A DNA stretch of 64,000 nucleotides from Eledone cirrhosa (Eukaryota): assembly GCA_964016885.1 (NCBI GenBank), contig OZ024742.1, forward strand, positions 58,280,001 through 58,344,000, read 5' to 3'. Both the position numbers and the translations under genes were made by a program. A model generated the notes under the pieces. That model had not been told where the DNA came from and made no database searches. It worked only from the letters and a program-made list of their open reading frames with translations. Shown piece after piece: positions 3,523 to 48,448 of the stretch. Position 1 is the first letter of the stretch; every line of letters begins with the position of its first letter.

Positions 3523-6500
3523 ATCATCATCATCATTTTACGTCCGTTCTTCCACGCTAGCATGGGTTAGACGGGTTGTCCTGTTGTGGGCAGTGTCTGG
3601 TTGGCTGACCATGCCTTGCTCATACAGGAACTGATTTGGCTTGATTTCTACAGCTGGATGCCCTTCCTAACACCAACCTCATTTACAGTGAGTGCTGGGT
3701 GCTTTTTCGTGGCGCCTACACATCCACTTTACAGTGTGGGCTGGGTGCTTTTTTGCCGTGGCTACTTCCACGACCACCTTGCAGTGAGAGGGTGTGGGGG
3801 CATATTGTCTATATGCTTCAGCTTGTACCCATGGGAGGTCGGGTACTCTGTATTACTGCATCACGGTCGTATGTCATCGCCTTTGAGAGGTGTAATTGGG
3901 TAAGGTCGGCTTTTATCACCTCATCCCAGGTCATCTTCGGTCTCCCCACTCCGCGGTTTCCATCGACTTCTAGTGCTCTGCACCTTTTTATGCAGCTGTC
4001 ATCCTTCATACGCATCACATGTCCATACCAACGCAACTGCCTCTCCTGCACACAGCATTTGATTCCTCTTATGCTCAGTCTCTCTCTCAATTCATTTATG
4101 CTTTGTCGTTCACGTATATTACTGTTACACATCCATCGGAGCATGCAGGCTTCGTTTCTCTCTAATCTACGTGAGTCTTCTACCTTCAGCGCCCAGGTCT
4201 CACTACCATTTAACATTGCTGTTCGGATACACGCATCAGTCTGCCTTTCATTTTGAGGGAGAAGCCTTTTGCAGCTAGCAGTGGTAGTAGTTCCTTAAAC
4301 TTCTTCCATCCCGTTCTTACCCTAGTTATTGTACTTTCTGAACACCCACCTCCGCTGCTAATTCGGTCACCTAGGTAGCAGAGGCTGTCTACTGTCTCTA
4401 CAGAGCCCTCCCAGAGATTGGTGGTACTTGTTTCCTGTGGCTGTTTGCTGCTTGCTGTCCCAGTAAAGCTGCTGCATTGAAGCCTACATTCTTAATTAAG
4501 CTTCCTGAGATCCCGCTACATCTCTTGTGTACCCATTGTTTGCATTTGGGGCAGAGAATGGAGTTCCTACCTACACCTTTCCTACATACTGAGCAAGGCC
4601 ATTTCTCTGAGGGGATCTGGGTTCTGTTTTCTCGTCTACTTACAAGGACCTTAGTCTTTGTCATGTTGACTTTGAGACCCTTTCTTTCTAGTCTCTGCTT
4701 CCAAGTTTGGAATTTCTTCTCTAGTTCTACCATAGATTCAGCTATAAGTGTGAGGTCATCAGCATACAGGAGTTCCCATGGTCATCCGGTCTTAAACTTC
4801 TCCGTTATTACCTGCAGGACTATGATGAACAGGAGAGGGCTAAGAACAGAGCCCTGGTGGACCCCAACCTGTACGCTAAATTCCTCGCTATACTCATTGC
4901 TAATCCTAACTTTGCTGACTGCTCCCCTATACATGGCTTGTACAGCTTTCACAAGCCATTCATCTACTCCTAGTTTTCTAAGAGCCCACCAGATTGCAGC
5001 ACGTGGAACTCTGTCAAAGGCTTTCTCGAGATCGACGAATGACAGGTAGAGTGGCTTACTTTTAGCTAGGTACTTTTCCTGTAACTGCCTCACAAGGAAG
5101 AGGGCATCAGTGGTGCCTCTTCCTGGTACAAACCCAAATTGCATCTCATCTAGTTTCACCCGGTCCCTAATCAACTGTGCTATAACTCTTTCTGTTATTT
5201 TCATGACCTGTTCCATCAGCTTTATACCTCTATAGTTTCCTCTATCGAGTGCATCACCTTTACGTTTGTAGCAGTTGAAATGATGCTACTGCACTAATCT
5301 TTTGGTATGACACCTAGTATTACCTGGTTAACAATGCATGTGGTTATAGTGTGACCTACAGACCCAGATGCCTTCAGCATCTCGGCAGCTATACCCGATG
5401 GACCGGTTGCCTTCCCCATCTTCATATCTTTGATTGCCTTACTTACTACGCTGCTGCTGACTTGTACTGCTGGCCCCTCTATAGGGCCTACTTGGGGTAG
5501 GGTCTCTTCTTCCCATGCATTCTCCTCATTTAGTCATCTATCATAATGACTCTTCCATGCATCTTTCTTCTCAGCACTTGTGAGGGCAAGCTCACCTTTA
5601 TCATTCCGGATACACTTCTCTCCAATGACATCACAATTCTCTCTGACACACTGCCTCGTAATCTTGAATACATCCTGTTTCTGGTCCTCACGTTGCAAAA
5701 ACATGCTTGCATTTTCTATCCTCTGCTTCCCTCCTACCTAAGTATACTTGTCGCCTAGCTTCCCTCTTGGTCTCTATGTAATGTACCCTGCTCCCCCCGT
5801 TCTTCCATTCTTTCCATGCCTGTCTCTTGGCCTTAACTGCTTCATCTACCTTATTGTTCCACCACTAAGTCACTCTCCTCCTGCTTGTGGTCTTACTCCA
5901 GCCACAGACCTCATCTGTCGCCTCTAGTAAGTTATTTTTTAGGAACTCCCAGTGCTCTTCTACATTGAATGTCTATCTGTTCTTCTTTACTTTCGTAGGC
6001 GTTGAGTAAAATATCTTTAAATCTGTTACTGGCTGAGGGGTCTTTCAGCTTCCAGATCTTTCTTCTCCAGGTTGGCCTGTTTCCAGGTTCGTCTAGTTCT
6101 GACTGTGAGGTCGCTGACAACTAAGCTATGTTGGGAGGTACATTCCTCACTAGGGAAGGTTTTTGTGTTTACGACCGTCCATCTGTCACGTCCTCTGATA
6201 AGGATAAAATCTATCTGACTAGAATGCTCCCCTGATCTATAGGTGATCAGCTGGTTGTCAGGTTTTTTGAAGTTTGTGTTACATATCGACAAGTCATTGG
6301 CGTCGCAAAATTCTAGAAGTCTGAATCCTTCTTCCTTTCTTGTGCCAACCCCATGGCCTCCATGGACTCTATTGAAGCTGTCACAGTGTTTGCTTACGTG
6401 TCCGTTAAAATCTCCTGCGATGATTAGGAAGTCATTGTCGTTTGTTAGAGCAGTACTGTGCATTAGGGACTCGTAAAATCTATCCTTAAGTTCATCTGGC

Positions 6501-7290
6501 AACCCCGATTGGGGTGTGTAAGCTGATATTATTGTGGTAATTGTTTTATTCAGGACTAGTCTGAGTTTAATGATTCTTGCATTTACCCTGTACACTGAGA
6601 TTACTTTATCTACCCACTTGTCAGCTAGTAGTATACCTACACCACCCATCCCATCGTCATTTCCCACCCAGAAAAATTTGTAGCAGTGACTTTTTTCTAC
6701 AAGGACTCTAGCAGACTCTCCTCTCCATCCAGTCTCTTGCACACAGCATACATCAATTTCCTTTCGCTCTAGCATTTCTACGATTTCTCCTGCTCTTCCT
6801 TTCATTGTGCTTACATTGATGGTACTAACTCGGAGTTTTGGGCATTTGTCGACACTCGTAGGGAAGGGTCGATTTTTGCAGGGGTGTGTGTGTGCTTCCT
6901 CTCTCTGGATTGGCGCTTCACATGGGTGCTTGGTAGCTCGCGGATTCATATTCATACCATCTATTAATTCAGAGTTGCTCCAATTTATTCTCAGCTCATC
7001 CATCCATAACGGTAGGAAAATTCAGGTCTAGAAGAACAGTGGTGGTGGTAATAATGGCAGGGTGTGTTGGGCTGGGACGGGGGAGGAGAGAGTTAGGTAG
7101 TAGTAGTAGAAGAAGAAATGGCATGCTGAGGTTTGATTGGTCGAATAAGCTATGGTGGTGTTAGGGGGTGAGTGTGAGGGAAATTGTGAGGTAGAGAGAA
7201 GGTCGCCGTCAAGGCTAACAAACTAACTGATAGAATACAGCATGGAAAAGTAGCCGATAGAATACAGCAACAATAATATTAATAATAGCC
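3523..7290 (-). mobile_element. RTE LINE family A, near full-length, disabled by frameshifts and stops
   Basis: APE ORF 6026-7003, RT fragments (FVDLEKAFDRVP, QGSVLSPLLF, YADD), PHD-like finger, (GAT)n tail at 3523; colinear with the intact copy at 48709. Confidence 0.95.
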
Positions 7291-7387
7291 AGTCATGGCT
7301 GTCTCTGTCTATTTTTACATCAAAGGCTACCTTTGATGGAAAAATAGACAGAGACAGAGTCAGCATGGTAGGGGAAAATGAGGATAA

Positions 7388-8385
7388 TCATCATCATCAT
7401 CGTTTAATGTCCATATTCCACGCTTGCATGGGTTTGGACGGGAGTTTTCCCACTTGAGGCAAGAGTGGTTGTCTTGCTCGCATAGGACTGTCTGGCAGGT
7501 TTTCTACAGCTGGATGCCAATTCCTAACACCAACCACATTTACAGTGTCGAACTGGGAGGTTTTTACCGTGTTACCTACACGGCCACATTACAGCGTGGA
7601 CTGTGTGTTTTTTTGTCGTGACACCTACACGACCTCATTTGTTTTGGACTGGATGTTGTGGTACCAACATAACTTTACATTGAAAGGGGTGGTGTGGATG
7701 GGGTGGGGATAGTGGGACGGGGGTGTATTTTGTTAGAGGTGCCTACTGACTGTAGTAGATTTCACTTTGCACTTAGGTAAGGCGGGACTTCTGTATTACT
7801 GTGTAGCGCCAAAGATCTCGGTCCAGTGACATTGTCTTGGAGAGGTGTAAGTGTGTGAGGTCGGAATTTATCAAGTCGTCCCAGGTTTTTCTGGGTCTGC
7901 CTACTCCGATGCTACCGTCTATTTTTATTGCCCTGCACTTTTTTATACAGCCGTCGTCTTTCATGCGCATCACGTGACCGTACCAACGTAGTCTTCTCTC
8001 GAGTAAACAACATCTGATCCCTCTTATTTCTAATTTCTCCCTTAGTTCGTTTATGCTTTGCCGTTCACGTATATTACTATTACACATCCAGCGGAGCATG
8101 CAAGCTTCGTTTCTCTCCAGTCTGCGTATATCCTCTGCACACAATGCCCAGGTCTCACTGCCATGTAACATTGCTGTTCGTATGCAGGCAGCATACAGCC
8201 TGCCTTTCATTTTTAGAGAGAACCCTTTAGCGGCCAATAGTGGTATAAGCTCCCTGAACTTTTTCCATCCCATTCTGACTCTAGCTACTATACTTTCAGA
8301 GCACCCTCCCCCACTGCTGATTTTATCACCCAGGTAACGGAAGCTGTCCACTATTTCTATAGAACCATCTGTGCAATGGAATGAG
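7388..8385 (-). mobile_element. RTE LINE family B, 5'-truncated
   Basis: C-terminal ORF IVDSFRYLG...RRLRWYGHVMRM...GRPRKTW, family B 3' UTR, (GAT)n tail. Confidence 0.93.
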
Positions 8386-8506
8386 TTAACAAAATAGATA
8401 TATAGTAATGAAAAACTTAATAACAAGGAAGTTCGTTAAATTAGCATATTTTTAAATTTTGAAAATGAGAAATTTAGTCAAGAAACTAACACACATCACT
8501 TCTTAC

Positions 8507-8682
8507 CATGATGCTTGATGTGGAGGACATAAATTGAACTGTTGCAGCAAAGAAAATGCACCAGAAGCAAGCTTTTCAGCATTGTATTGCACAATTGCAG
8601 TTGTACGGCTGCTTGACTGAATTGTCTGAGTAACAGGACTTTGGAAACGAAGACTGGCAATCATTGATGTAGCTGTTCTTTT
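8507..8682 (-). CDS. POLH: POLH coding exon 9
   Basis: tttttag|AAAAGA...TCATG|gtaaga; KRTATSMIASLRFQ...YNAEKLASGAFSLLQQFNLCPPHQASW; 176 nt, phase fits neighbours. Confidence 0.9.
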
Positions 8683-9428
8683 CTAAAAATTGAAGAAAAT
8701 GAAGAAACTTTAAAGTCAAAATGCAGATTCTTTAACTCTTGTCCTGTAATGATTTAGCAGAAAATATCTAAAAGCAAGTTAATTCAAATGTTTATAGTAT
8801 CTTTACTCGTGGAGAGATCATGAAACGTTTTAGTATTAGATTAAATTTTTCTTCTGATACAGTCCACCATAAGGTGGTTGAACATGGAAAGTCTACTGTA
8901 GAATGTCATGGCAGTTTATGTTGGTTATAGATATTGGTCCAGCAGGTGATGATTTGGTCCTAAGGCAGCTTTAGACACTAGAGCTACAAGGCTTTTGTTC
9001 ATTATATGTGTGTCTGCTGATAAGGGGAGTTAGATAAAGTCCCTCGATCTCAGTGTCAGAAATGTCTGTGGCAGAGTTAGTGTTGTCATGTGTGCATTTT
9101 ACTTAAACTTTGAGTTTATTATATCATGTAACATCTTCCATATTGTATGGACCTGTAACTCCTGGTGGAGTGGTAGGGGTGTCAGTGTCTCATGGCATGT
9201 ATTACACATTTTAAACATATTGGAACCCATCTCTTCTCCAGGTTGGCGTAGAGAGAAAGAGAGAAACCCAGTTGTGAATTATTATTAACATTTAAATGAA
9301 CTACTGTACTTGATATTGATGACAGACATGTCTGAATGAATAGATCTATGACAAAATGAAGAGTCAACTGAATGTCTGATGTCCACCAAAAATCTCAAAT
9401 TACCAACTGACTCAAAACACTTGTGGTA

Positions 9429-9623
9429 CAAGGGTCAACTGAAAAGTTTATAGGTTGACTATGAAGGAGTGATGCTAGAGCTGTGAAATCTTGCATGCAT
9501 TAATTTCAATTCTTATTAATAATCCATGGAAATAAACAATGCAGTTATGTTGAAAAATAAACCTCATTTGGTCATTCCATGAGAATATCTTGGTCAGTTT
9601 ATGAACTTTCCAGCTGACTCTTG
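9429..9623. mobile_element. Mariner-derived MITE
   Basis: Imperfect TIRs caagggtcaactgaaaagtttata / tatgaactttccagctgactcttg flanked by TA; interior matches the Mariner 3' end at 33180. Confidence 0.75.
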
Positions 9624-9787
9624 TAGGTAACATTGATTGATTGCCATCATTTTTTGAAGCAGGTTGCAGAAAATTTCCCCCAAAAGTTTCATCCAACCCA
9701 CAACATAGAAAAGTGGATCTAAACTATACTATTAAATTCAAGCATTTTTAGACATATCTGTCAAACAAATTTTAGGGATAAACTTAC

Positions 9788-9853
9788 ATTTTCTTTGTCT
9801 TTAATCAGTCTTTCTTCAACTTCTATAGCCAGTTGTTTTAACCAATATTTCAC
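9788..9853 (-). CDS. POLH: POLH coding exon 8
   Basis: tttcag|GTGAAA...GAAAAT|gtaagt; VKYWLKQLAIEVEERLIKDKEN; 66 nt, phase 0-0. Confidence 0.92.
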
Positions 9854-10222
9854 CTGAAATAAACGCACGATTTAGTACACCACACCATACTTTATATAAT
9901 ATAAACATACAAATGGATAAAGCAGATAAAAGATATATTCAGTGATCTAACAATTCCGCCAATCCATACCCTGAAGTGGTTCTAACAATTCTTAATGCAT
10001 TTGTTACCTATTTCTAATGAAAAACAATGCCTATAATTTTCATATCAGATTTAGTAGTTTGGAACAAAGGTTCTTACATAAAATTATGATGGATGATTTT
10101 TAAATGAACATAAACAATTTAAAATAAAGTTTTGTATCCTAGATCCAGGGGCACTTTCTGATAGTTTATCAAAAACATTAAAGGATCAAAGGTAAAGTTG
10201 TTTATCTGTAAAAACATCTTAC

Positions 10223-10346
10223 CTTTTCTCTAGTGTCTAAAGCTGCTTTACCAAGAAAGTTCTTACTGCATCCAATAGATTTTGGTAACTGTCTCGCTGT
10301 CACTGTTTCATAATCAAACCCTCGACACAAGGAATGAAGCCAAGTC
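10223..10346 (-). CDS. POLH: POLH coding exon 7
   Basis: ttttag|G...GAAAAG|gtaaga; TWLHSLCRGFDYETVTARQLPKSIGCSKNFLGKAALDTREK. Confidence 0.95.
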
Positions 10347-10636
10347 CTAAAATAAACAGGCAAGTTTCTCTTAGATGGCTATGGAATTTAATCCTTTTGT
10401 GACCATATTTCGAACGAGAATATGCTTCCTTTGTGTTTTAACTATTAACATCCTGTAATAATTTAACAGAAAATATATAAAGATGGGCTTGTTTATTTAA
10501 ATGTTTATAGAATCTTTACTAGTGGGAATACTCCCAACCATTCCTTACTGCTTTATTACCATGCAGGTCTATTAGACACGGACTAATTCCTTGACTATTA
10601 CTGCCATACAGGTTTATTTCCTTGATCATTACTTAC

Positions 10637-10756
10637 CCTGTTTTACTGCCATACAGATCTATGAGGTGCTCCATAGAGAACTGCCAAATGTCTGACATCT
10701 TCTCTATTCCATGGACACGTTTCAAGTCATCACCAAATTTGCCACCAAGGTTACGC
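10637..10756 (-). CDS. POLH: POLH coding exon 6
   Basis: tttcag|GCGT...ACAGG|gtaagt; RNLGGKFGDDLKRVHGIEKMSDIWQFSMEHLIDLYGSKTG (thumb HhH). Confidence 0.93.
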
Positions 10757-12827: not shown

Positions 12828-14134
12828 CCCTTTTGTTACCATATTTCTAACCAAAATACACCCCTTATGTGTTTCAATTAATTTCTAACAATCATAAATT
12901 TAGTCTGGTTTCATTAAACAACTAACTTTTTTATTTATCAACATATTACAAGTAAATACAGGTAAATTCAACAAAATATGAAATTATTTAAATTTTGTTC
13001 AAACATCGCTATAGAAGATGGGTTATTAGCTAATATTCAATTGGATATACAACAAAATTTTACTATAGAAGAGTTGTGCACATTACTGGATTACTGGATT
13101 TATCAGGTGAATTTAAACACACAAAAGACAGGTGTACCATAAAGGTATAAATAAAACGAAAGACTGGAATTTGTCTGAAGAAAACTAGAAAACAAAATAC
13201 ACACACCATCAACTAGATTAAATAATCTCCCACATACATAGATACGCAGAAATATACAATAATGATTTACAAAAGAAATTAATCAAAACTCGTTACTCAC
13301 CTTACAGGTAAATTAAAATTACACATGAAGAAAAATAAAAACGAAGTAAATTTGAAATTAATAATAAAATAAAATCACACATATATACAAATCAAACAAT
13401 ATTCCATAATAATATTTATGGCAAAATAAGCTCTAATTTCATTTAAGCTTGTGGGAAACCACAAACTATCTTTTTTTCGCTTTGTTTACTTTCAGCGTAA
13501 CGGTTTGTTTCCGCCGTAATGATTTCTAACAAGCTCATAGGAAAAAGTAAAAGGAAATAGTCTAAAGCTTTGCTCTCCTGGGATAGACTGTGACTTGGTC
13601 CAGTTTCTTCACAAAAATCACTGAAAGAAAGTTTTTATATTTTTACTCCATTCAGGTGCCAATTCATTTTCTTTATCGCTGTCATCAGAGCTCTCAGATT
13701 CAGTGTTTTCACTTTCGGAAAATGAAACATCGGATTCATTATCAAATACCACGTGCTTTTTCTTTTCAGTTATAGAGTTAGATTTTTCAAGGTCTTCAGT
13801 AGAAAATCCTTCGAATTCTGACTCGCTGCTTGACTGAATGAAATTGGTATCCATTTTTTGTCAGAATTACAAATTTTCAAAACACAACAGGAACAAATTT
13901 GGAAAAAAAATCTCCCAAAATTCACAGAATTAAAATAACACGTCGATCGTTGTCCAAAACTGTAGCTCAATTGTTTACACAGTATAATCACATGTTTTCA
14001 CAAATGTACTAACAAGATTTGCTCTGATATTCTCATTTAAATATGAATGTGTGAGTACGGGCGGTTTTGGGCAGCTTGGTCACATGAACCAAAATTCTTT
14101 TCGGGCAGCTTTGGGCGGTTTGGTAACGAAAGGG
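12828..14134 (-). mobile_element. Internally deleted piggyBac element
   Basis: TTAA on both sides; TIRs cccttttgttacca / tggtaacgaaaggg; minus-strand acidic N-terminus (SSSESEFEGF...W) followed by DYFLLLFPMSLLEIITAETNRYAE...WFPTSLNEIRAYF, typical of a piggyBac transposase start. Confidence 0.85.
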
Positions 14135-14402
14135 TTAAGACAAATTGTACTAAATATTACAACAGGAACAATTTACCAAGTTTTAGGAAACTATTAGTCC
14201 CAAAAATTGTTCTGCTATAGGCCATAGAAAAGTAGTTTGCAGGACACGTGTTTGAGATCCCCTAGAATAGAGGCTGCTTAAGACACAACGTCAGATGTTG
14301 GCAGTATTAAACTGATGAACAGACCGTCAACCTTGTAAGACCAGTGCCAGCAACTAACAATTTAAGAGTCTGCAACTTCCAAACTCAGAGCTAGCAACTT
14401 AC

Positions 14403-20448: not shown

Positions 20449-23400
20449 ATCATCATCATCATCATCATCATCAACGTTTAACGTCCGTGTTCCACGCTTG
20501 CATGGGTTTGGACGGGGGTAGTCCCACTTGAGGCAAGAGTGATTGTCTTGCTCGCATAGGACTGTCTGGCAGGTTTTCTACAGTTGGATGCCCTTCCTAA
20601 CACCAACCACATTTACAGTGTGGGTCTGGGAGGTTTTTACCGTGTTGCCTACACGGCCACATTACAGCGTGGACTGTGTGTTTTTTTGTCGTGACACCTA
20701 CACGATCTCATTTGTTTCGGCCTCGATGGCGCGGCACCAACATAACTTTACATAGAACGGGGTGGTGTGGATCGGGTGGGGGGGGGGGGGGGGGGGGTGT
20801 ATTTTGTTAGAGATGCCTACTGGCTGGAGTAGGTTTTACTATATATTTAGGTAAGGCGGGTCTTCTCTGTTACTGAGTACCGCCAAAGGTCTCGGTCCAG
20901 TGACATTGTCTTGGAGAGGTGTAAGTGTGTGATGTCGGAGTTTATCAGCTCGTCCCAGGTTTTTCTAGGTCTGCCTATTCCGTGACTACCGTCTATCTTT
21001 ATTGCCCTGCACTTTGTTATACAGCTATCGACTTTCATGCGCATCACGTGTCCATACCAACGTAGCCTTCTCTCGAGTAAACAACATCTGATCCCTCTTA
21101 TCTCTAATTTATTCCTTAGTTCGTTTATGCTTTGCCGTTCACGTATATTACTGTTACACATCCAGCGGAGCATGCAAGCTTCGTTCCTCTCTAGTCTGCG
21201 TATATCCTCTGCACACAATGCCCAGGTCTCACTGCCATGCAGCATTGCTGTTCGTATGCAGGCATCGTACAACCTGCCTTTCATTTTTAGTGAGAACCCT
21301 TTAGCAGCTAATAGTGGTATAAGCTCTCTGAACTTTTTCCAACCAGTTCTGACTCTAGCTACAGTACTTTCAGAGCACCCTCCCCCACTGCTGATTTTAT
21401 CGCCCAGGTAACGGAAGCTGTCCACTATTTCTATAGAACCCTCTGCGCAATTGAAAGAGCTAGTATTGGTGGGCACTTGCTGCTACTTATTGCACCAGAG
21501 CACCGGCCACATGTAAAATCTATGTTCTTAGTTAGCTTACCTGTGATCCCACTACATCTTTTATGCACCCATACTTTGCATTTAGGACATAAAATGGAGT
21601 TTCTACCTACGCCTTTCCTACACACCGAGCACGACCATTTCCCAGAAGGGACCGCCGCCTTGTTTTCTTTCCTACAAACTAGTACTTTGGTCTTAGCCAG
21701 GTTAATTTTAAGTCCTTTTGACTCTAGGCCGTGCTTCCATGTTTGGAATTTCTTCTCTAGCTCGGCCATTGATTCCGCTATGAGTGTCAGGTCGTCTGCG
21801 TATAGGAGTTCCCATGGGCAGCCTGTCTTGAACTCCTCTGTTATAGCCTGAAGGGCAATAATAAATAGTAGTGGACTGAGAACAGAGCCCTGATGGACGC
21901 CGACTTTTACGCTAAACTCTTCACTATATTCGTTGTTAATTCTAACCTTGCTGACTGTTTCTTTATACATGGCTTGTATAGCCCTCACAAGCCATTCGTC
22001 AACGCCTAGTTTTCTAAGAGCCCACCAGATAATGGAGCGGGGGACTCTGTCGAAGGCTTTCTCCAAGTCGACAAAAGCTAAGTAGAGGGGTTTACCTTTA
22101 GCTAGGTACTTCTCCTGTAGTTGTCGTACTATGAAAAGAGCGTCTGTGGTACTTTTGCCTGACACAAACCCGAACTGCATTTCATCTAGGTCAATTCTCT
22201 CTCTGATTAGTTGCGCTATTACTCTTTCCGTGACCTTCATGACCTGGTCGATTAATTTAATGCCTCTATAGTTACTCCTATCTAGGGCGTCTCCTTTACC
22301 CTTATAACAGTTAACGATGATGCTGCTATGCCAGTCCTTCGGAACAACCCCGTTCTGTACGACTTGGTTAACTATGCGGGTGACCATGGTGTGTCCCACC
22401 GTGCCAGATGCCTTCAGCATCTCAGCAACTATTTCTGAAGGCCCAGCCGCCTTACCAGTCTTCATATCCTTGATTGCCTTACTTATTATACTCCCCTCGA
22501 CTAACACTGCTGGTCCCTCTATTGAGTCGATATGGGGGAGACTGCCTTTCTCCCAATTATTCTCCTCATTTAGAAGCCTTTCATAGTGACACTTCCAAGC
22601 TACCTTCTTATCAGCGTCGGTGATGGCAAGTGTGCCATCGTCGTTTAGTACACACTTCTCCCCGACAATATCACGGTTTTCCTTGACGCATTGCCTAGCA
22701 ATCCTGAACACCTCACGTTTTTGGTCATCGCGTTGTAGAACATGCTTGAACTTTCTTTCCTCAGCTTCCCTTCTTGCTAAGTACACTTGTCTCCTAGCTT
22801 CCCTCCTGGCCACTTGATAGTCCTCTCTACTTCCCCCATCCCGCCATACTTTCCAAGCCTGCTTTTTGGCCTTAATTGACCCCTCCACCTTACTGTTCCA
22901 CCACCATGTTACTCTCCTCCTGCCTACAAGCCTGCTCCAGCCACAGACCTCGTCTGTCGCCAACAGCAGGTTTGCTTTCAGAAATTCCCACTCTCCCTCT
23001 ATATTGTCCGACTCTAAATGTTCTTCCTTACTGTCGAAAGCATCAAGTAATATGCTTTGAAATTTATTCCTGGCTGTGGGGTCCTTTAGCTTCCATATTT
23101 TCCTCCTGAGGATAGTCCTCTTCTGTTGTCGAGTACGTCTCGTCCTGACTATGAGGTCGCTAATTATCAGTCTATGTTGGGAGGTGCATTCTTCATGGGG
23201 GAGGGATTTAGTGTTAACAACAGACACTCTGTCACGTCTTCTGGTAAGGATATAATCTACCTGGCTTGTGTGTTCCCCGGATCTATAGGTGATCAGGTGA
23301 TTGTCACGTTTTTTGAAGTTAGTGTTACAGATAGTTAGGTTATTTGCATCACAGAATTCCAGGATTCTGGAGCCTTCCTCATTTCTAGTACCAAACCCAT

Positions 23401-23970
23401 AGCCTCCATGGATTTCGTCGTAGCCGTCACAATGTTGTCCAACGTGACCATTTAGGTCGCCTGCGATAATTATATAGTCACTGTCGGATATTTGGGAGGT
23501 AGTTAGCATCAGTGTCTCGTAGAATCTGTCTTTTATAGTGCCGGGCAGTCCGGATTGGGGTGCGTACGCAGATATTACTGTCACCGTAGTTCTATTGAGG
23601 ACAAGTCGTATTTTAATTATTCTGTCGTTCACTCTATTTACGTCTATTATCTTATCTGCCCACTTTTCTGCTACCATGATTCCTACTCCACCCAGCCCAT
23701 CGTCGTTTCCCACCCAGAAAAGCTTATAACAACGTTTTTTACCCTCAATGAACCTAGCAGACCCACCCCTCCACCTGGTCTCTTGAATACAACAAAGATC
23801 GACCTCCTTACGTTCAAGCATTTCTACAACCTCGTTAGCGCGACCCTTTAGGGTGCCTACATTTATGGTACCAACTCTGAAGTTTTGGATTGCGTTTGGG
23901 GGTTGGGGGCGGTGAGGGGCGGGGGGCGATGGGGTTATGTTAGCCGTCCGCGGTCGAAACAATGAGGAGT
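20449..23970 (-). mobile_element. RTE LINE family B, near full-length, single frameshift
   Basis: 843-aa APE-RT-PHD ORF (21431-23962) plus a 209-aa C-terminal ORF (20847-21476); (GAT)n tail. Confidence 0.96.
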
Positions 23971-24040
23971 GCTCGCATTCTCATATATATATATTCTACA
24001 TATATATATATATATATATTCTACATATATATATATATTC

Positions 24041-46605: not shown

Positions 46606-48448
46606 TTCAATCTGAAAATATTGAAGAGATAAGACACTTTGCCATTCTTCTCTGCTAAAATGTACCACTAGAGCTGATTCAAATTTTCCCAGCCAGCCAT
46701 CCACCTAATCTACGAAGGTATTTTAGCCTACATATTGTCGTTAATATTATGATGTTCCCTGCTGTATTAGCGTTAAATTTTCCCTGCTGTATTAGCGATA
46801 AATTTTCGAGGGTTTCTCTTAGTAGCTTTTTCATGTCGTTAATATTATGATGTTCCCTGCTGTATTAGCGTTAAATTTTCCCTGCTGTATTAGCGATAAA
46901 TTTTCGAGGGTTTCTCTTAGTAGCTTTTTTCATGACGTTATTATTGTTAATTTTACTGATGTAGTATTAACTTATTAACTTGGATATTTACCATGCGGTA
47001 TTCTAATCCTATTGTATCTCTCTCAGTTCCTACCCCCCCCCCCCCCCTCTATGCACTTCTTTAAGGCTTACTACCCTGTCTTTAACCTAATTCATTCAAT
47101 CTGAAAATATTGAAGAGATAAGACACTTTGCCATTCTTCTCTGCTAAAATGTACCACTAGAGCTGATTCAAATTTTCCCAGCCAGCCATCCACCTAATCT
47201 ACGAAGGTATTTTAGCCTACATATTGTCGTTAATATTATGATGTTCCCTGCTGTATTAGCGTTAAATTTTCCCTGCTGTATTAGCGATAAATTTTCGAGG
47301 GTTTCTCTTAGTAGCTTTTTCATGTCGTTAATATTATGATGTTCCCTGCTGTATTAGCGTTAAATTTTCCCTGCTGTATTAGCGATAAATTTTCGAGGGT
47401 TTCTCTTAGTAGCTTTTTTCATGACGTTATTATTGTTAATTTTACTGATGTAGTATTAACTTATTAACTTGGATATTTACCATGCGGTATTCTAATCCTA
47501 TTGTATCTCTCTCAGTTCCTACCCCCCCCCCCCTCTATGCACTTCTTTAAGGCTTACTACCCTGTCTTTAACCTAATTCATTCAATCTGAAAATATTGAA
47601 GAGATAAGACACTTTGCCATTCTTCTCTGCTAAAATGTACCACTAGAGCTGATTCAAATTTTCCCAGCCAGCCATCCACCTAATCTACGAAGGTATTTTA
47701 GCCTACATATTGTCGTTAATATTATGATGTTCCCTGCTGTATTAGCGTTAAATTTTCCCTGCTGTATTAGCGATAAATTTTCGAGGGTTTCTCTTAGTAG
47801 CTTTTTCATGTCGTTAATATTATGATGTTCCCTGCTGTATTAGCGTTAAATTTTCCCTGCTGTATTAGCGATAAATTTTCGAGGGTTTCTCTTAGTAGCT
47901 TTTTTCATGACGTTATTATTGTTAATTTTACTGATGTAGTATTAACTTATTAACTTGGATATTTACCATGCGGTATTCTAATCCTATTGTATCTCTCTCA
48001 GTTCCTACCCCCCCCCCCTCTATGCACTTCTTTAAGGCTTACTACCCTGTCTGTAACCTAATTCATTCAATCTGAAAATATTGAAGAGATAAGACACTTT
48101 GCCATTCTTCTCTGCTAAAATGTACCACTAGAGCTGATTCAAATTTTCCCAGCCAGCCATCCACCTAATCTACGAAGGTATTTTAGCCTACATATTATCG
48201 TTAATATTATGATGTTCCCTGCTGTATTAGCGTTAAATTTTCCCTGCTGTATTAGCGATAAATTTTCGAGGGTTTCTCTTAGTAGCTTTTTCATGTCGTT
48301 AATATTATGATGTTCCCTGCTGTATTAGCGTTAAATTTTCCCTGCTGTATTAGCGATAAATTTTCGAGGGTTTCTCTTAGTAGCTTTTTTCATGACGTTA
48401 TTATTGTTAATTTTACTGATGTAGTATTAACTTGGATATTTACCATGC
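46606..48448 (+). repeat. Tandem ~486-bp monomers (3.8 copies) forming the 5' end of the intact RTE
   Basis: Unit starts ttcaatctgaaaatattg at 46606, 47095, 47581 and 48066; each unit has a ~98-bp internal duplication containing a ~25-bp duplication. Confidence 0.92.

What the first reader, a model, noticed from the sequence alone, without database searches (positions are those of the whole stretch)
8961..10250. Intronic perfect antisense copy of POLH exon 7: candidate editing-complementary sequence
Seen: 8965-8983 (gcagctttagacactagag) is the exact reverse complement of exon 7 positions 10228-10246. The match extends to 22 of 23 nt with one exon-A : intron-C mismatch (10247/8964). In the pre-mRNA the duplex ends 5 nt from the exon 7 donor and loops out the 66-nt phase-0 exon 8. 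Shorter antisense blocks to exon 6 lie nearby (catggaa..atgtca..tggcagtt at ~8883-8916; ggtgatgatttg at ~8945). A rough uniform-base estimate for a chance 19-mer exon-intron match in this gene is ~1e-4. Established: ADAR recoding uses intronic ECSs, favours A:C mismatches and UAG contexts, and is extensive in coleoids. Inference: possible editing includes AGA->GGA (Arg->Gly in LDTREK), or control of exon 8 skipping, in a translesion polymerase.
Basis: partly seen in the sequence, partly recalled or inferred. Interest (0 to 1): 0.75.

Follow-up and report, generated by a model that had tools for sequence, protein, structure and literature searches.

The report
Backwards exon patchwork in octopod POLH
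An intron of an octopus-type DNA-repair polymerase gene (POLH) holds a 23-base backwards copy of the end of exon 7, next to a broken mobile element; it is predicted to pair with the exon in unspliced RNA, but it is likely a DNA-copying scar, and no RNA editing or splicing effect could be tested.

Summary
The match is real: 19/19 and 22/23 nt, both arms single-copy, and no comparable match around 197 control exons. It lies in intron 8 of an intact 10-exon octopod POLH. The 19-bp helix has predicted pairing probability 0.83-1.0. The neighbouring 96 nt resemble exon 6 in colinear blocks (significant only with gap-tolerant scoring) and start exactly where a MITE copy breaks off. That suggests one inverted, multi-template copying event. 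The A:C mismatch is silent (AAA to AAG). The only recoding UAG (Arg to Gly) equals human R334G, a tolerated, mildly faster variant, and the Arg is Thr in Argonauta. No exon-8 skip appears in 11 cuttlefish-cluster or 6 octopod proteins. New here: a local hairpin is predicted to bury the exon-7 donor beside the helix, like Drosophila paralytic ECS plus DCS, but 5-11 of 94 control donors do as well. No RNA run or relative's intron was available. The scan's unchecked notes report similar inverted exon copies in other genes of this genome. Verdict: likely a scar, possible by-product editing, functional ECS not excluded.

The parts
10223..10346 (-). POLH exon 7 (TWLHSLCRG...KAALDTREK; human residues about 296-336)
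10228..10250 (-). Exonic arm of the duplex; 10228-10246 is the perfect 19 nt
8961..8983 (-). Intronic arm in intron 8, antisense to exon 7 in the pre-mRNA; single copy
8865..8960 (-). Patchwork segment with six colinear exact blocks (5-8 nt, 37 nt in all, 8873-8932) antisense to exon 6; weak extra likeness to the missing MITE tail
8729..8864 (+). Truncated copy of a roughly 225-bp MITE-like repeat with terminal inverted repeats; 108 of 117 aligned bases match the family consensus; the last 70 or so nt are missing or remodelled
10188..10226 (-). Predicted local hairpin (10226-10211 with 10203-10188, -12.1 kcal/mol) that buries the exon-7 donor and abuts the long-range helix
10247..10247 (-). 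A of the A:C mismatch; third position of AAA (Lys), so A-to-I would be silent
10238..10238 (-). UAG-context A in mid-helix; TTA to TTG, silent
10231..10231 (-). UAG-context A, AGA to GGA (Arg to Gly, equivalent to human R334G), 3 bp from the helix end
9788..9853 (-). POLH exon 8, 66 nt, inside the loop; aligns to human residues 338-357
10637..10756 (-). POLH exon 6, likely template of the short blocks
8507..8682 (-). POLH exon 9; its acceptor lies about 280 nt beyond the intronic arm
10437..10525 (+). Second, shorter copy of the same MITE in intron 6 (direct orientation; explains the direct repeat with 8731-8812)

Best explanation
Intron 8 of this octopod POLH gene holds an inverted 23-nt copy of the end of exon 7 beside a truncated MITE, likely left by one template-switching repair event that also copied short pieces of exon 6, and the unspliced RNA is predicted to form a 19-23-bp duplex that is likely unselected and would at most draw low-level, mostly silent ADAR editing. 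Shown: the match, its single-copy state, its rarity, the MITE breakpoint at 8864/8865, the codon consequences. Computed: the duplex and the donor hairpin. Inferred: origin by repair at or after damage to the MITE's right end, with the polymerase copying the opposite strand 1.3-1.8 kb away in several jumps; neutrality; by-product editing.
For: The patchwork begins at the base where the MITE alignment ends (8864) and runs about 96 nt to the 23-nt core. It is colinear with exon 6 in the same orientation as the core: 7 of 20000 GC-matched genomic windows score as well with gap-tolerant scoring, 12 of 10000 by exact-block chaining, and decayed MITE tails do not explain this (0 and 1 of 5000). Yet two of these blocks have predicted pairing probability 0.0 and a third 0.19-0.44, and the six-block duplex (-28.8 kcal/mol) is weaker than the two strands folded apart (-25.4 and -11.3): copy traces without useful pairing. 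One mismatch in 23 nt needs no selection if the copy is as old as the MITE (expected 2.3, P(<=1) 0.33 at 7.7% divergence). The favoured adenosines are silent. The exonic arm differs by amino-acid changes in O. bimaculoides and Argonauta. Complex multi-template inverted insertions with microhomology are common germline events in humans (PMC8421209, abstract and first part of section 10 read). Low-frequency coleoid recoding may be a by-product (PMC9068888 passages).
Against: The exon-6 likeness vanishes with strict gap costs (4212 and 1411 of 20000), intron 6 scores 35 against exon 6's 37 in the block chain, and no clear microhomology junctions were resolved, so the multi-jump origin is not proven. 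Isolated long-range inverted copies are rare in this genome: of 18 unique-arm inverted matches of 19 nt or more in 0.72 Mb, 14 have spacers of 405 nt or less, 3 are pieces of one long inverted pair, and only POLH is isolated at over 1 kb. All recognisable pieces match exons. Flanks extend the duplex more than most controls (25 and 58 of 3000) and a donor hairpin abuts it; both fit selection. With the older MITE copy's divergence, P(<=1 mismatch) is 0.09. 43% of unique bases lie within 100 nt of a repeat, 7% within 10 nt, so the MITE adjacency is only moderate evidence.
Confidence: 0.55

Rival explanations
1. Functional editing-complementary sequence with a donor-sequestering hairpin: the hairpin would delay splicing at the exon-7 donor while the intronic arm pairs, and ADAR would edit A10247, A10238, possibly A10248/A10249 (Lys to Arg/Glu), A10231 (Arg to Gly) and A10224/A10225 in the hairpin. 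It may have begun as a repair copy and then been kept by selection.
For: Helix probability 0.83-1.0 at 37 and 12 C; A:C mismatch with 19 bp on its 3' side; 0 of 197 control exons have such a match; joint flank extension 25 and 58 of 3000; donor hairpin z -4.1, 0 of 200 shuffles, 0 of 94 control donors in a fixed window; same layout as Drosophila paralytic ECS plus DCS (PMC4299485 passages); no variant in 8870-9070 in contigs that differ from each other nearby.
Against: Each flank alone is not significant (226 and 312 of 3000); with sliding windows 5-11 of 94 control donors have an equal hairpin; best sites silent; exon arm not conserved at protein level; no Arg-to-Gly among 11 cuttlefish-cluster proteins covering the site (a distant lineage, majority calls only); no POLH entry in the supplements searched (these files may not hold site tables).
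Confidence: 0.27
2. Pure chance: a 19-mer coincidence picked out by a very large scan, with the flanks and exon-6 blocks being over-reading of lenient alignments.
For: 0.7-1.0 such 19-mers within 1.5 kb of coding exons are expected per genome; two unrelated exact hits in metagenome contigs and three 1-mismatch hits in G000 show how often such words recur; exon-6 likeness is not significant with strict gap costs or as duplex energy (43 of 250; 33 of 600).
Against: Extension to 22 of 23; adjacent colinear exon-6 chain in the same orientation at 7-104 of 20000 under four gap-tolerant schemes, 4 of 500 after allowing any of nine exons.
Confidence: 0.12
3. The duplex loops out exon 8 and promotes its in-frame skipping, to make a shortened polymerase or to turn down activity.
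For: Exon 8 is 66 nt and phase 0-0 and lies inside the loop; the exon-7 donor is predicted to be buried.
Against: The arm lies in intron 8 only and pairs with an exon, not with the upstream intron, so it does not bring the exon-7 donor to the exon-9 acceptor in the usual way (inference); it forms equally after intron 7 is removed. All 11 cuttlefish-cluster and 6 octopod proteins covering the junction keep exon 8. Exon 8 encodes 22 residues of the crystallised core, recalled as the first helix of the little-finger domain.
Confidence: 0.06

Closest known systems
Complex microhomology-mediated templated insertions (MMB-TI / MMBIR-like; PMC8421209, abstract and first part of section 10 read)
   Same: Short inverted copy of a nearby template, several apparent template pieces, next to a breakpoint (the truncated MITE).
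   Different: Empty allele not seen; junction microhomologies not resolved; pieces of only 5-8 nt; template 1.3-1.8 kb away; the published calls used a 25-bp threshold.
Drosophila paralytic editing structure: intronic ECS plus donor site complementary sequence (PMC4299485, passages read)
   Same: Exon 3' end predicted to pair with a distant intronic arm, with the splice donor held in an adjacent duplex.
   Different: There editing, conservation and mutational dependence are shown and the gene is a neural ion channel; here none is shown, the donor partner is a local hairpin 20-35 nt into intron 7, and the arm lies beyond the next exon.
NEIL1 K242R recoding (named in PMC12562983, passage read; its exon-intron hairpin is recalled, from no call)
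   Different: Measured editing with altered lesion handling; here editing is hypothetical. Human POLH editing in that paper is intronic or 3' UTR and Alu-based.
Human POLH R334G (rs9333548; PMC10048814, abstract and table passages read)
   Same: Same residue and same substitution as A-to-I at 10231 would give.
   Different: A germline variant: 1.8-3.5-fold higher kcat/Km, unchanged Kd, and among the variants that rescued knockout cells.

Membership tests
Editing-complementary sequence (ECS) of an ADAR recoding site | Intronic sequence complementary to the exon, forming a stable duplex in the pre-mRNA | tested here: met
   Computed only: pair probabilities 0.83-1.0 over 19 bp
Editing-complementary sequence (ECS) of an ADAR recoding site | A-to-I editing observed in the paired exon segment | not testable with these tools
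Editing-complementary sequence (ECS) of an ADAR recoding site | Conservation or compensatory change of the intronic arm in relatives | not testable with these tools
   G000 has no relatives held; the metagenome scan gave two unrelated hits
Editing-complementary sequence (ECS) of an ADAR recoding site | Exonic arm constrained across related species | tested here: inconclusive
   Protein level only: O. vulgaris and O. sinensis keep AALDTR, O. bimaculoides has SALDTR, Argonauta AALDTT
Editing-complementary sequence (ECS) of an ADAR recoding site | Favoured adenosine (A:C mismatch or UAG) at a recoding position | tested here: inconclusive
   A:C site and mid-helix UAG are silent; the recoding UAG is 3 bp from the helix end
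Editing-complementary sequence (ECS) of an ADAR recoding site | Editing lost on mutating the arm and restored by compensatory mutation | not testable with these tools
   Needs a minigene
Donor site complementary sequence (paralytic type) | Splice donor held in a duplex more stable than at ordinary donors | tested here: inconclusive
   0 of 94 in a fixed window; 5-11 of 94 with sliding windows
Templated inverted insertion (MMB-TI / template switch) | Inserted bases match a nearby template in inverted orientation | tested here: met
   22 of 23 nt to exon 7 at 1.24 kb; single copy
Templated inverted insertion (MMB-TI / template switch) | Several templates or jumps (complex class) | tested here: inconclusive
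   Exon-6 chain significant in 4 of 6 alignment schemes and both chain metrics, not in 2 strict schemes
Templated inverted insertion (MMB-TI / template switch) | Empty allele and junction microhomology | not testable with these tools
   No variant in 8870-9070 in three runs of one sample; no relative's intron available
DNA polymerase eta (POLH) | Orthology of the host gene | tested here: met
   Exon 7 is 85-88% identical to named octopod Pol eta proteins and matches human Pol eta structures at E 1.6e-12; intact 812-codon frame

The most novel reading that the evidence does not exclude
A repair accident at a MITE gave this octopod lineage a newborn ECS that, with a donor-burying hairpin, rebuilds the paralytic-type ECS plus DCS module on a translesion polymerase, so that ADAR recodes the little-finger entry (Lys328- and Arg334-equivalent codons) and tunes lesion bypass, Arg-to-Gly matching a human variant that is 2-3.5 times more efficient.
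Probability: 0.12. Interest if true: 0.75.

Novelty: new member of a known kind. Interest (0 to 1): 0.32.

Why it matters
If neutral, it is one more dated example of how exon-complementary arms arise by DNA repair in a lineage with very active ADARs, which is the raw material for new editing sites. If functional, it would link coleoid recoding to translesion synthesis and show an ECS being born beside a transposon, with a predictable biochemical outcome because the human equivalent (R334G) has been measured. It is cheap to test: one deep RNA-seq data set and one PCR across intron 8 in relatives.

Tried and rejected
RNA test: no RNA holder listed; this is no evidence either way. X1-X3 behave as DNA of one sample. 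Assembly artefact rejected: contigs cover each arm without differences, though no single contig spans both. Arm as part of a dispersed repeat rejected: single-copy depth and searches. 8865-8960 as a decayed SINE: no profile hit. As plain decayed MITE tail: weak only (131 of 5000 lenient, 651 of 5000 strict, no profile hit) and it does not account for the exon-6 likeness. Spliced cDNA origin: the 12 nt at about 8943-8957 fit a spliced exon 6/7 junction, the unspliced donor, or an out-of-order exon-6 block about equally; undecided. Patchwork from exact matches of 9 nt or more within 2.5 kb: 5 matches, fewer than most control windows. Cross-species DNA: none held; metagenome scan gave 2 hits with unrelated flanks. 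Editing tables: no POLH or 'polymerase eta' in the held supplements of PMC8382921, PMC4384741, PMC9068888, PMC6881472 and PMC5850729; most held files were small and the 2017 Cell site tables were not held, so supplements I could not see may list POLH sites. Literature searches for an octopus POLH ECS or POLH recoding (listings only) showed none among the listed papers.

Full report
Observation. The inverted match is as described: 8965-8983 is the exact reverse complement of 10228-10246, and 8961-8983 / 10228-10250 agree at 22 of 23 nt with 1244 nt between the arms. The host gene is a minus-strand POLH with 10 exons, GT-AG introns and 812 codons without internal stop. Exon 7 is 85-88% identical to named octopod Pol eta proteins, so the organism is taken to be an octopod other than those named. 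The helix ends 5 nt from the exon-7 donor, encloses the 66-nt exon 8, and its intronic arm lies in intron 8 about 280 nt before the exon-9 acceptor. The exact 19-mer occurs only at these two places in G000; three 1-mismatch hits belong to one unrelated repeat family. Contigs of three runs of one sample cover each arm, and 8870-9070 shows no variant although the contigs differ from each other just outside it.

How rare is it? Of 204 kinase and ion-channel matches in G000 I entered 203, and 197 lay in fetched DNA: 70.8 kb of coding match, 4.6e8 exon-flank pairs, about 11 times POLH's search space. None had a complex inverted match of 17 nt or more; the two longer hits were (CA)n runs. These controls are imperfect: some are single-exon genes, some matches run into introns, and many have only 1.5 kb of flank. 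In 0.72 Mb of unmasked sequence out of 1.23 Mb there were 18 inverted matches of 19 nt or more; 14 have spacers up to 405 nt, 3 belong to one long inverted pair, and only the POLH one is isolated at over 1 kb; mirror controls stopped at 17 nt. Against this, composition predicts 0.7-1.0 chance 19-mers within 1.5 kb of coding exons per genome for an assumed 25-35 Mb of CDS. The core is rare per gene but not impossible per genome.

Surroundings. 8729-8864 is a truncated copy of a roughly 225-bp repeat with terminal inverted repeats (MITE-like; 49 matches, profile from 27 copies); 108 of 117 aligned bases match the consensus. A second piece lies in intron 6 (10437-10525). The 96 nt between the MITE breakpoint and the 23-nt core align colinearly with exon 6, in the same orientation as the core, as six exact blocks of 5-8 nt or 62 identities, 6 mismatches and 60 gap columns. 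Significance depends on scoring: 7, 21, 41 and 104 of 20000 GC-matched windows under four gap-tolerant schemes, 1411 and 4212 of 20000 under two strict ones, 12 and 19 of 10000 by exact-block chaining. Allowing any of nine exons gives 0.008 and 0.018 for two tolerant schemes and 0.36-0.97 for three others. Intron 6, which is longer, chains almost as well (35 against 37). The segment also has weak likeness to the missing MITE tail (131 of 5000), which does not explain the exon-6 likeness (0 and 1 of 5000). No SINE profile hit was found.

Predicted RNA structure. The 19-bp helix is in the minimum-energy fold of 10800-8650 at 37 and 15 C and has pair probabilities 0.83-1.0 at 37 and 12 C, both in the unspliced RNA and after removal of introns 6 and 7. 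Flanks add stability beyond most controls (25 of 3000 shuffled, 58 of 3000 random intronic), but neither side is significant alone (226 and 312 of 3000) and the windows were chosen after looking. It beats all 94 putative control donors in a fixed window, but with sliding windows 11 of 94 reach the -10.8 that POLH scored there and 5 of 94 reach -12.1.

What editing would do. The A:C adenosine (10247) is the third base of AAA, so editing is silent; the mid-helix UAG (10238) is silent; the recoding UAG (10231, Arg to Gly) is 3 bp from the helix end. That adenosines near a duplex 3' end are poor substrates is recalled, from no call; UAG as the preferred context is in PMC10661471 (passages). The Arg is human R334. 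Human R334G has 1.8-3.5-fold higher kcat/Km and unchanged DNA binding (PMC10048814, table passages), and the abstract names only three other variants as failing to rescue knockout cells. Under the helix, O. bimaculoides has Ser for Ala and Argonauta Thr for Arg. Of 24 members of the cuttlefish protein cluster 15 were listed; 11 cover the site, all with Arg and with exon 8, and so do the 6 named octopod proteins for exon 8. These are majority sequences from other lineages and cannot exclude partial editing here. Exon 8 aligns to human residues 338-357 in the crystallised core. In squid, 91% of robust recoding sites are neural-type and low-frequency recoding may be a by-product (PMC9068888, passages).

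Interpretation. The simplest account of all parts is one copying event: the right end of the MITE was lost or rewritten and filled with inverted pieces of exons 6 and 7. This explains the breakpoint, the shared orientation and order, and the blocks that match in sequence but are not predicted to pair. One mismatch in 23 nt needs no selection at the adjacent MITE's divergence (P 0.33), though it is less likely at the other copy's (P 0.09). Complex multi-template insertions are an established class (PMC8421209, abstract and first part of section 10). I put this at 0.55. A selected ECS with a donor-burying hairpin, laid out like Drosophila paralytic ECS plus DCS (PMC4299485, passages), gets 0.27; the two readings can be stages of one history. 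Chance gets 0.12 and exon-8 skipping 0.06. Some low-level editing of this duplex in neurons is plausible under the first two readings and would not by itself show function.

Limits. No RNA holder was listed and no relative's intron was available, so editing and conservation, the two defining tests, were not run. Held supplements of five editing papers had no POLH entry, but the main site tables were not held. Four searches (listings only) showed no report of a cephalopod POLH ECS. Earlier, unchecked notes of this scan describe inverted exon copies in EPS8, PIG-S and TM9SF4 of this same genome and in other octopus genomes, mostly read as repair scars; I did not test them, they gave me the PMC8421209 lead and the word 'scar', and they lower the surprise of the class. 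Nothing was on record near this locus or for this sequence.

Verdict. Real and beyond local chance; a new member of a known kind (inverted templated copy, candidate ECS); function not shown. Interest 0.32.

Noticed in passing
window 10553-10662: Three decayed tandem 45-nt units covering the end of exon 6 and the start of intron 6 (D3); the exon-6 3' end and donor region seem to have been tandemly duplicated into the intron.
   Followed up: no
window 10188-10226: Local hairpin predicted to bury the exon-7 donor; described in the report.
   Followed up: yes
window about 3820-8435 and 20850-23980, minus strand: Several long, partly broken endonuclease and reverse-transcriptase frames typical of RTE-type LINEs (family name recalled) fill intron 9 and the region upstream of POLH, in the gene's orientation.
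   Followed up: no
window 7299-7357: Near-perfect 28-nt inverted repeat with a 3-nt loop in intron 9 (I1), next to a LINE end.
   Followed up: no
window about 12830-14140: Element in intron 4 with TTAACCC-type ends and an acidic N-terminal-like frame, possibly a decayed piggyBac-like transposon (family recalled).
   Followed up: no
window 8468-8514 (minus strand): The exon-9 donor also folds into a hairpin, -10.6 kcal/mol, z -2.3.
   Followed up: no
window 46680-47840: Three copies of a unit of about 488 nt with identical 61-residue translations: a young tandem repeat.
   Followed up: no
L178:2126 and L159:5087: Exact 37-nt and 29-nt direct copies of ion-channel coding sequence within 300 nt of the exon match on contig C17.
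   Followed up: no
L116:7214-9151: Long, near-perfect inverted repeat pair about 1.7-1.9 kb apart near a kinase exon match.
   Followed up: no
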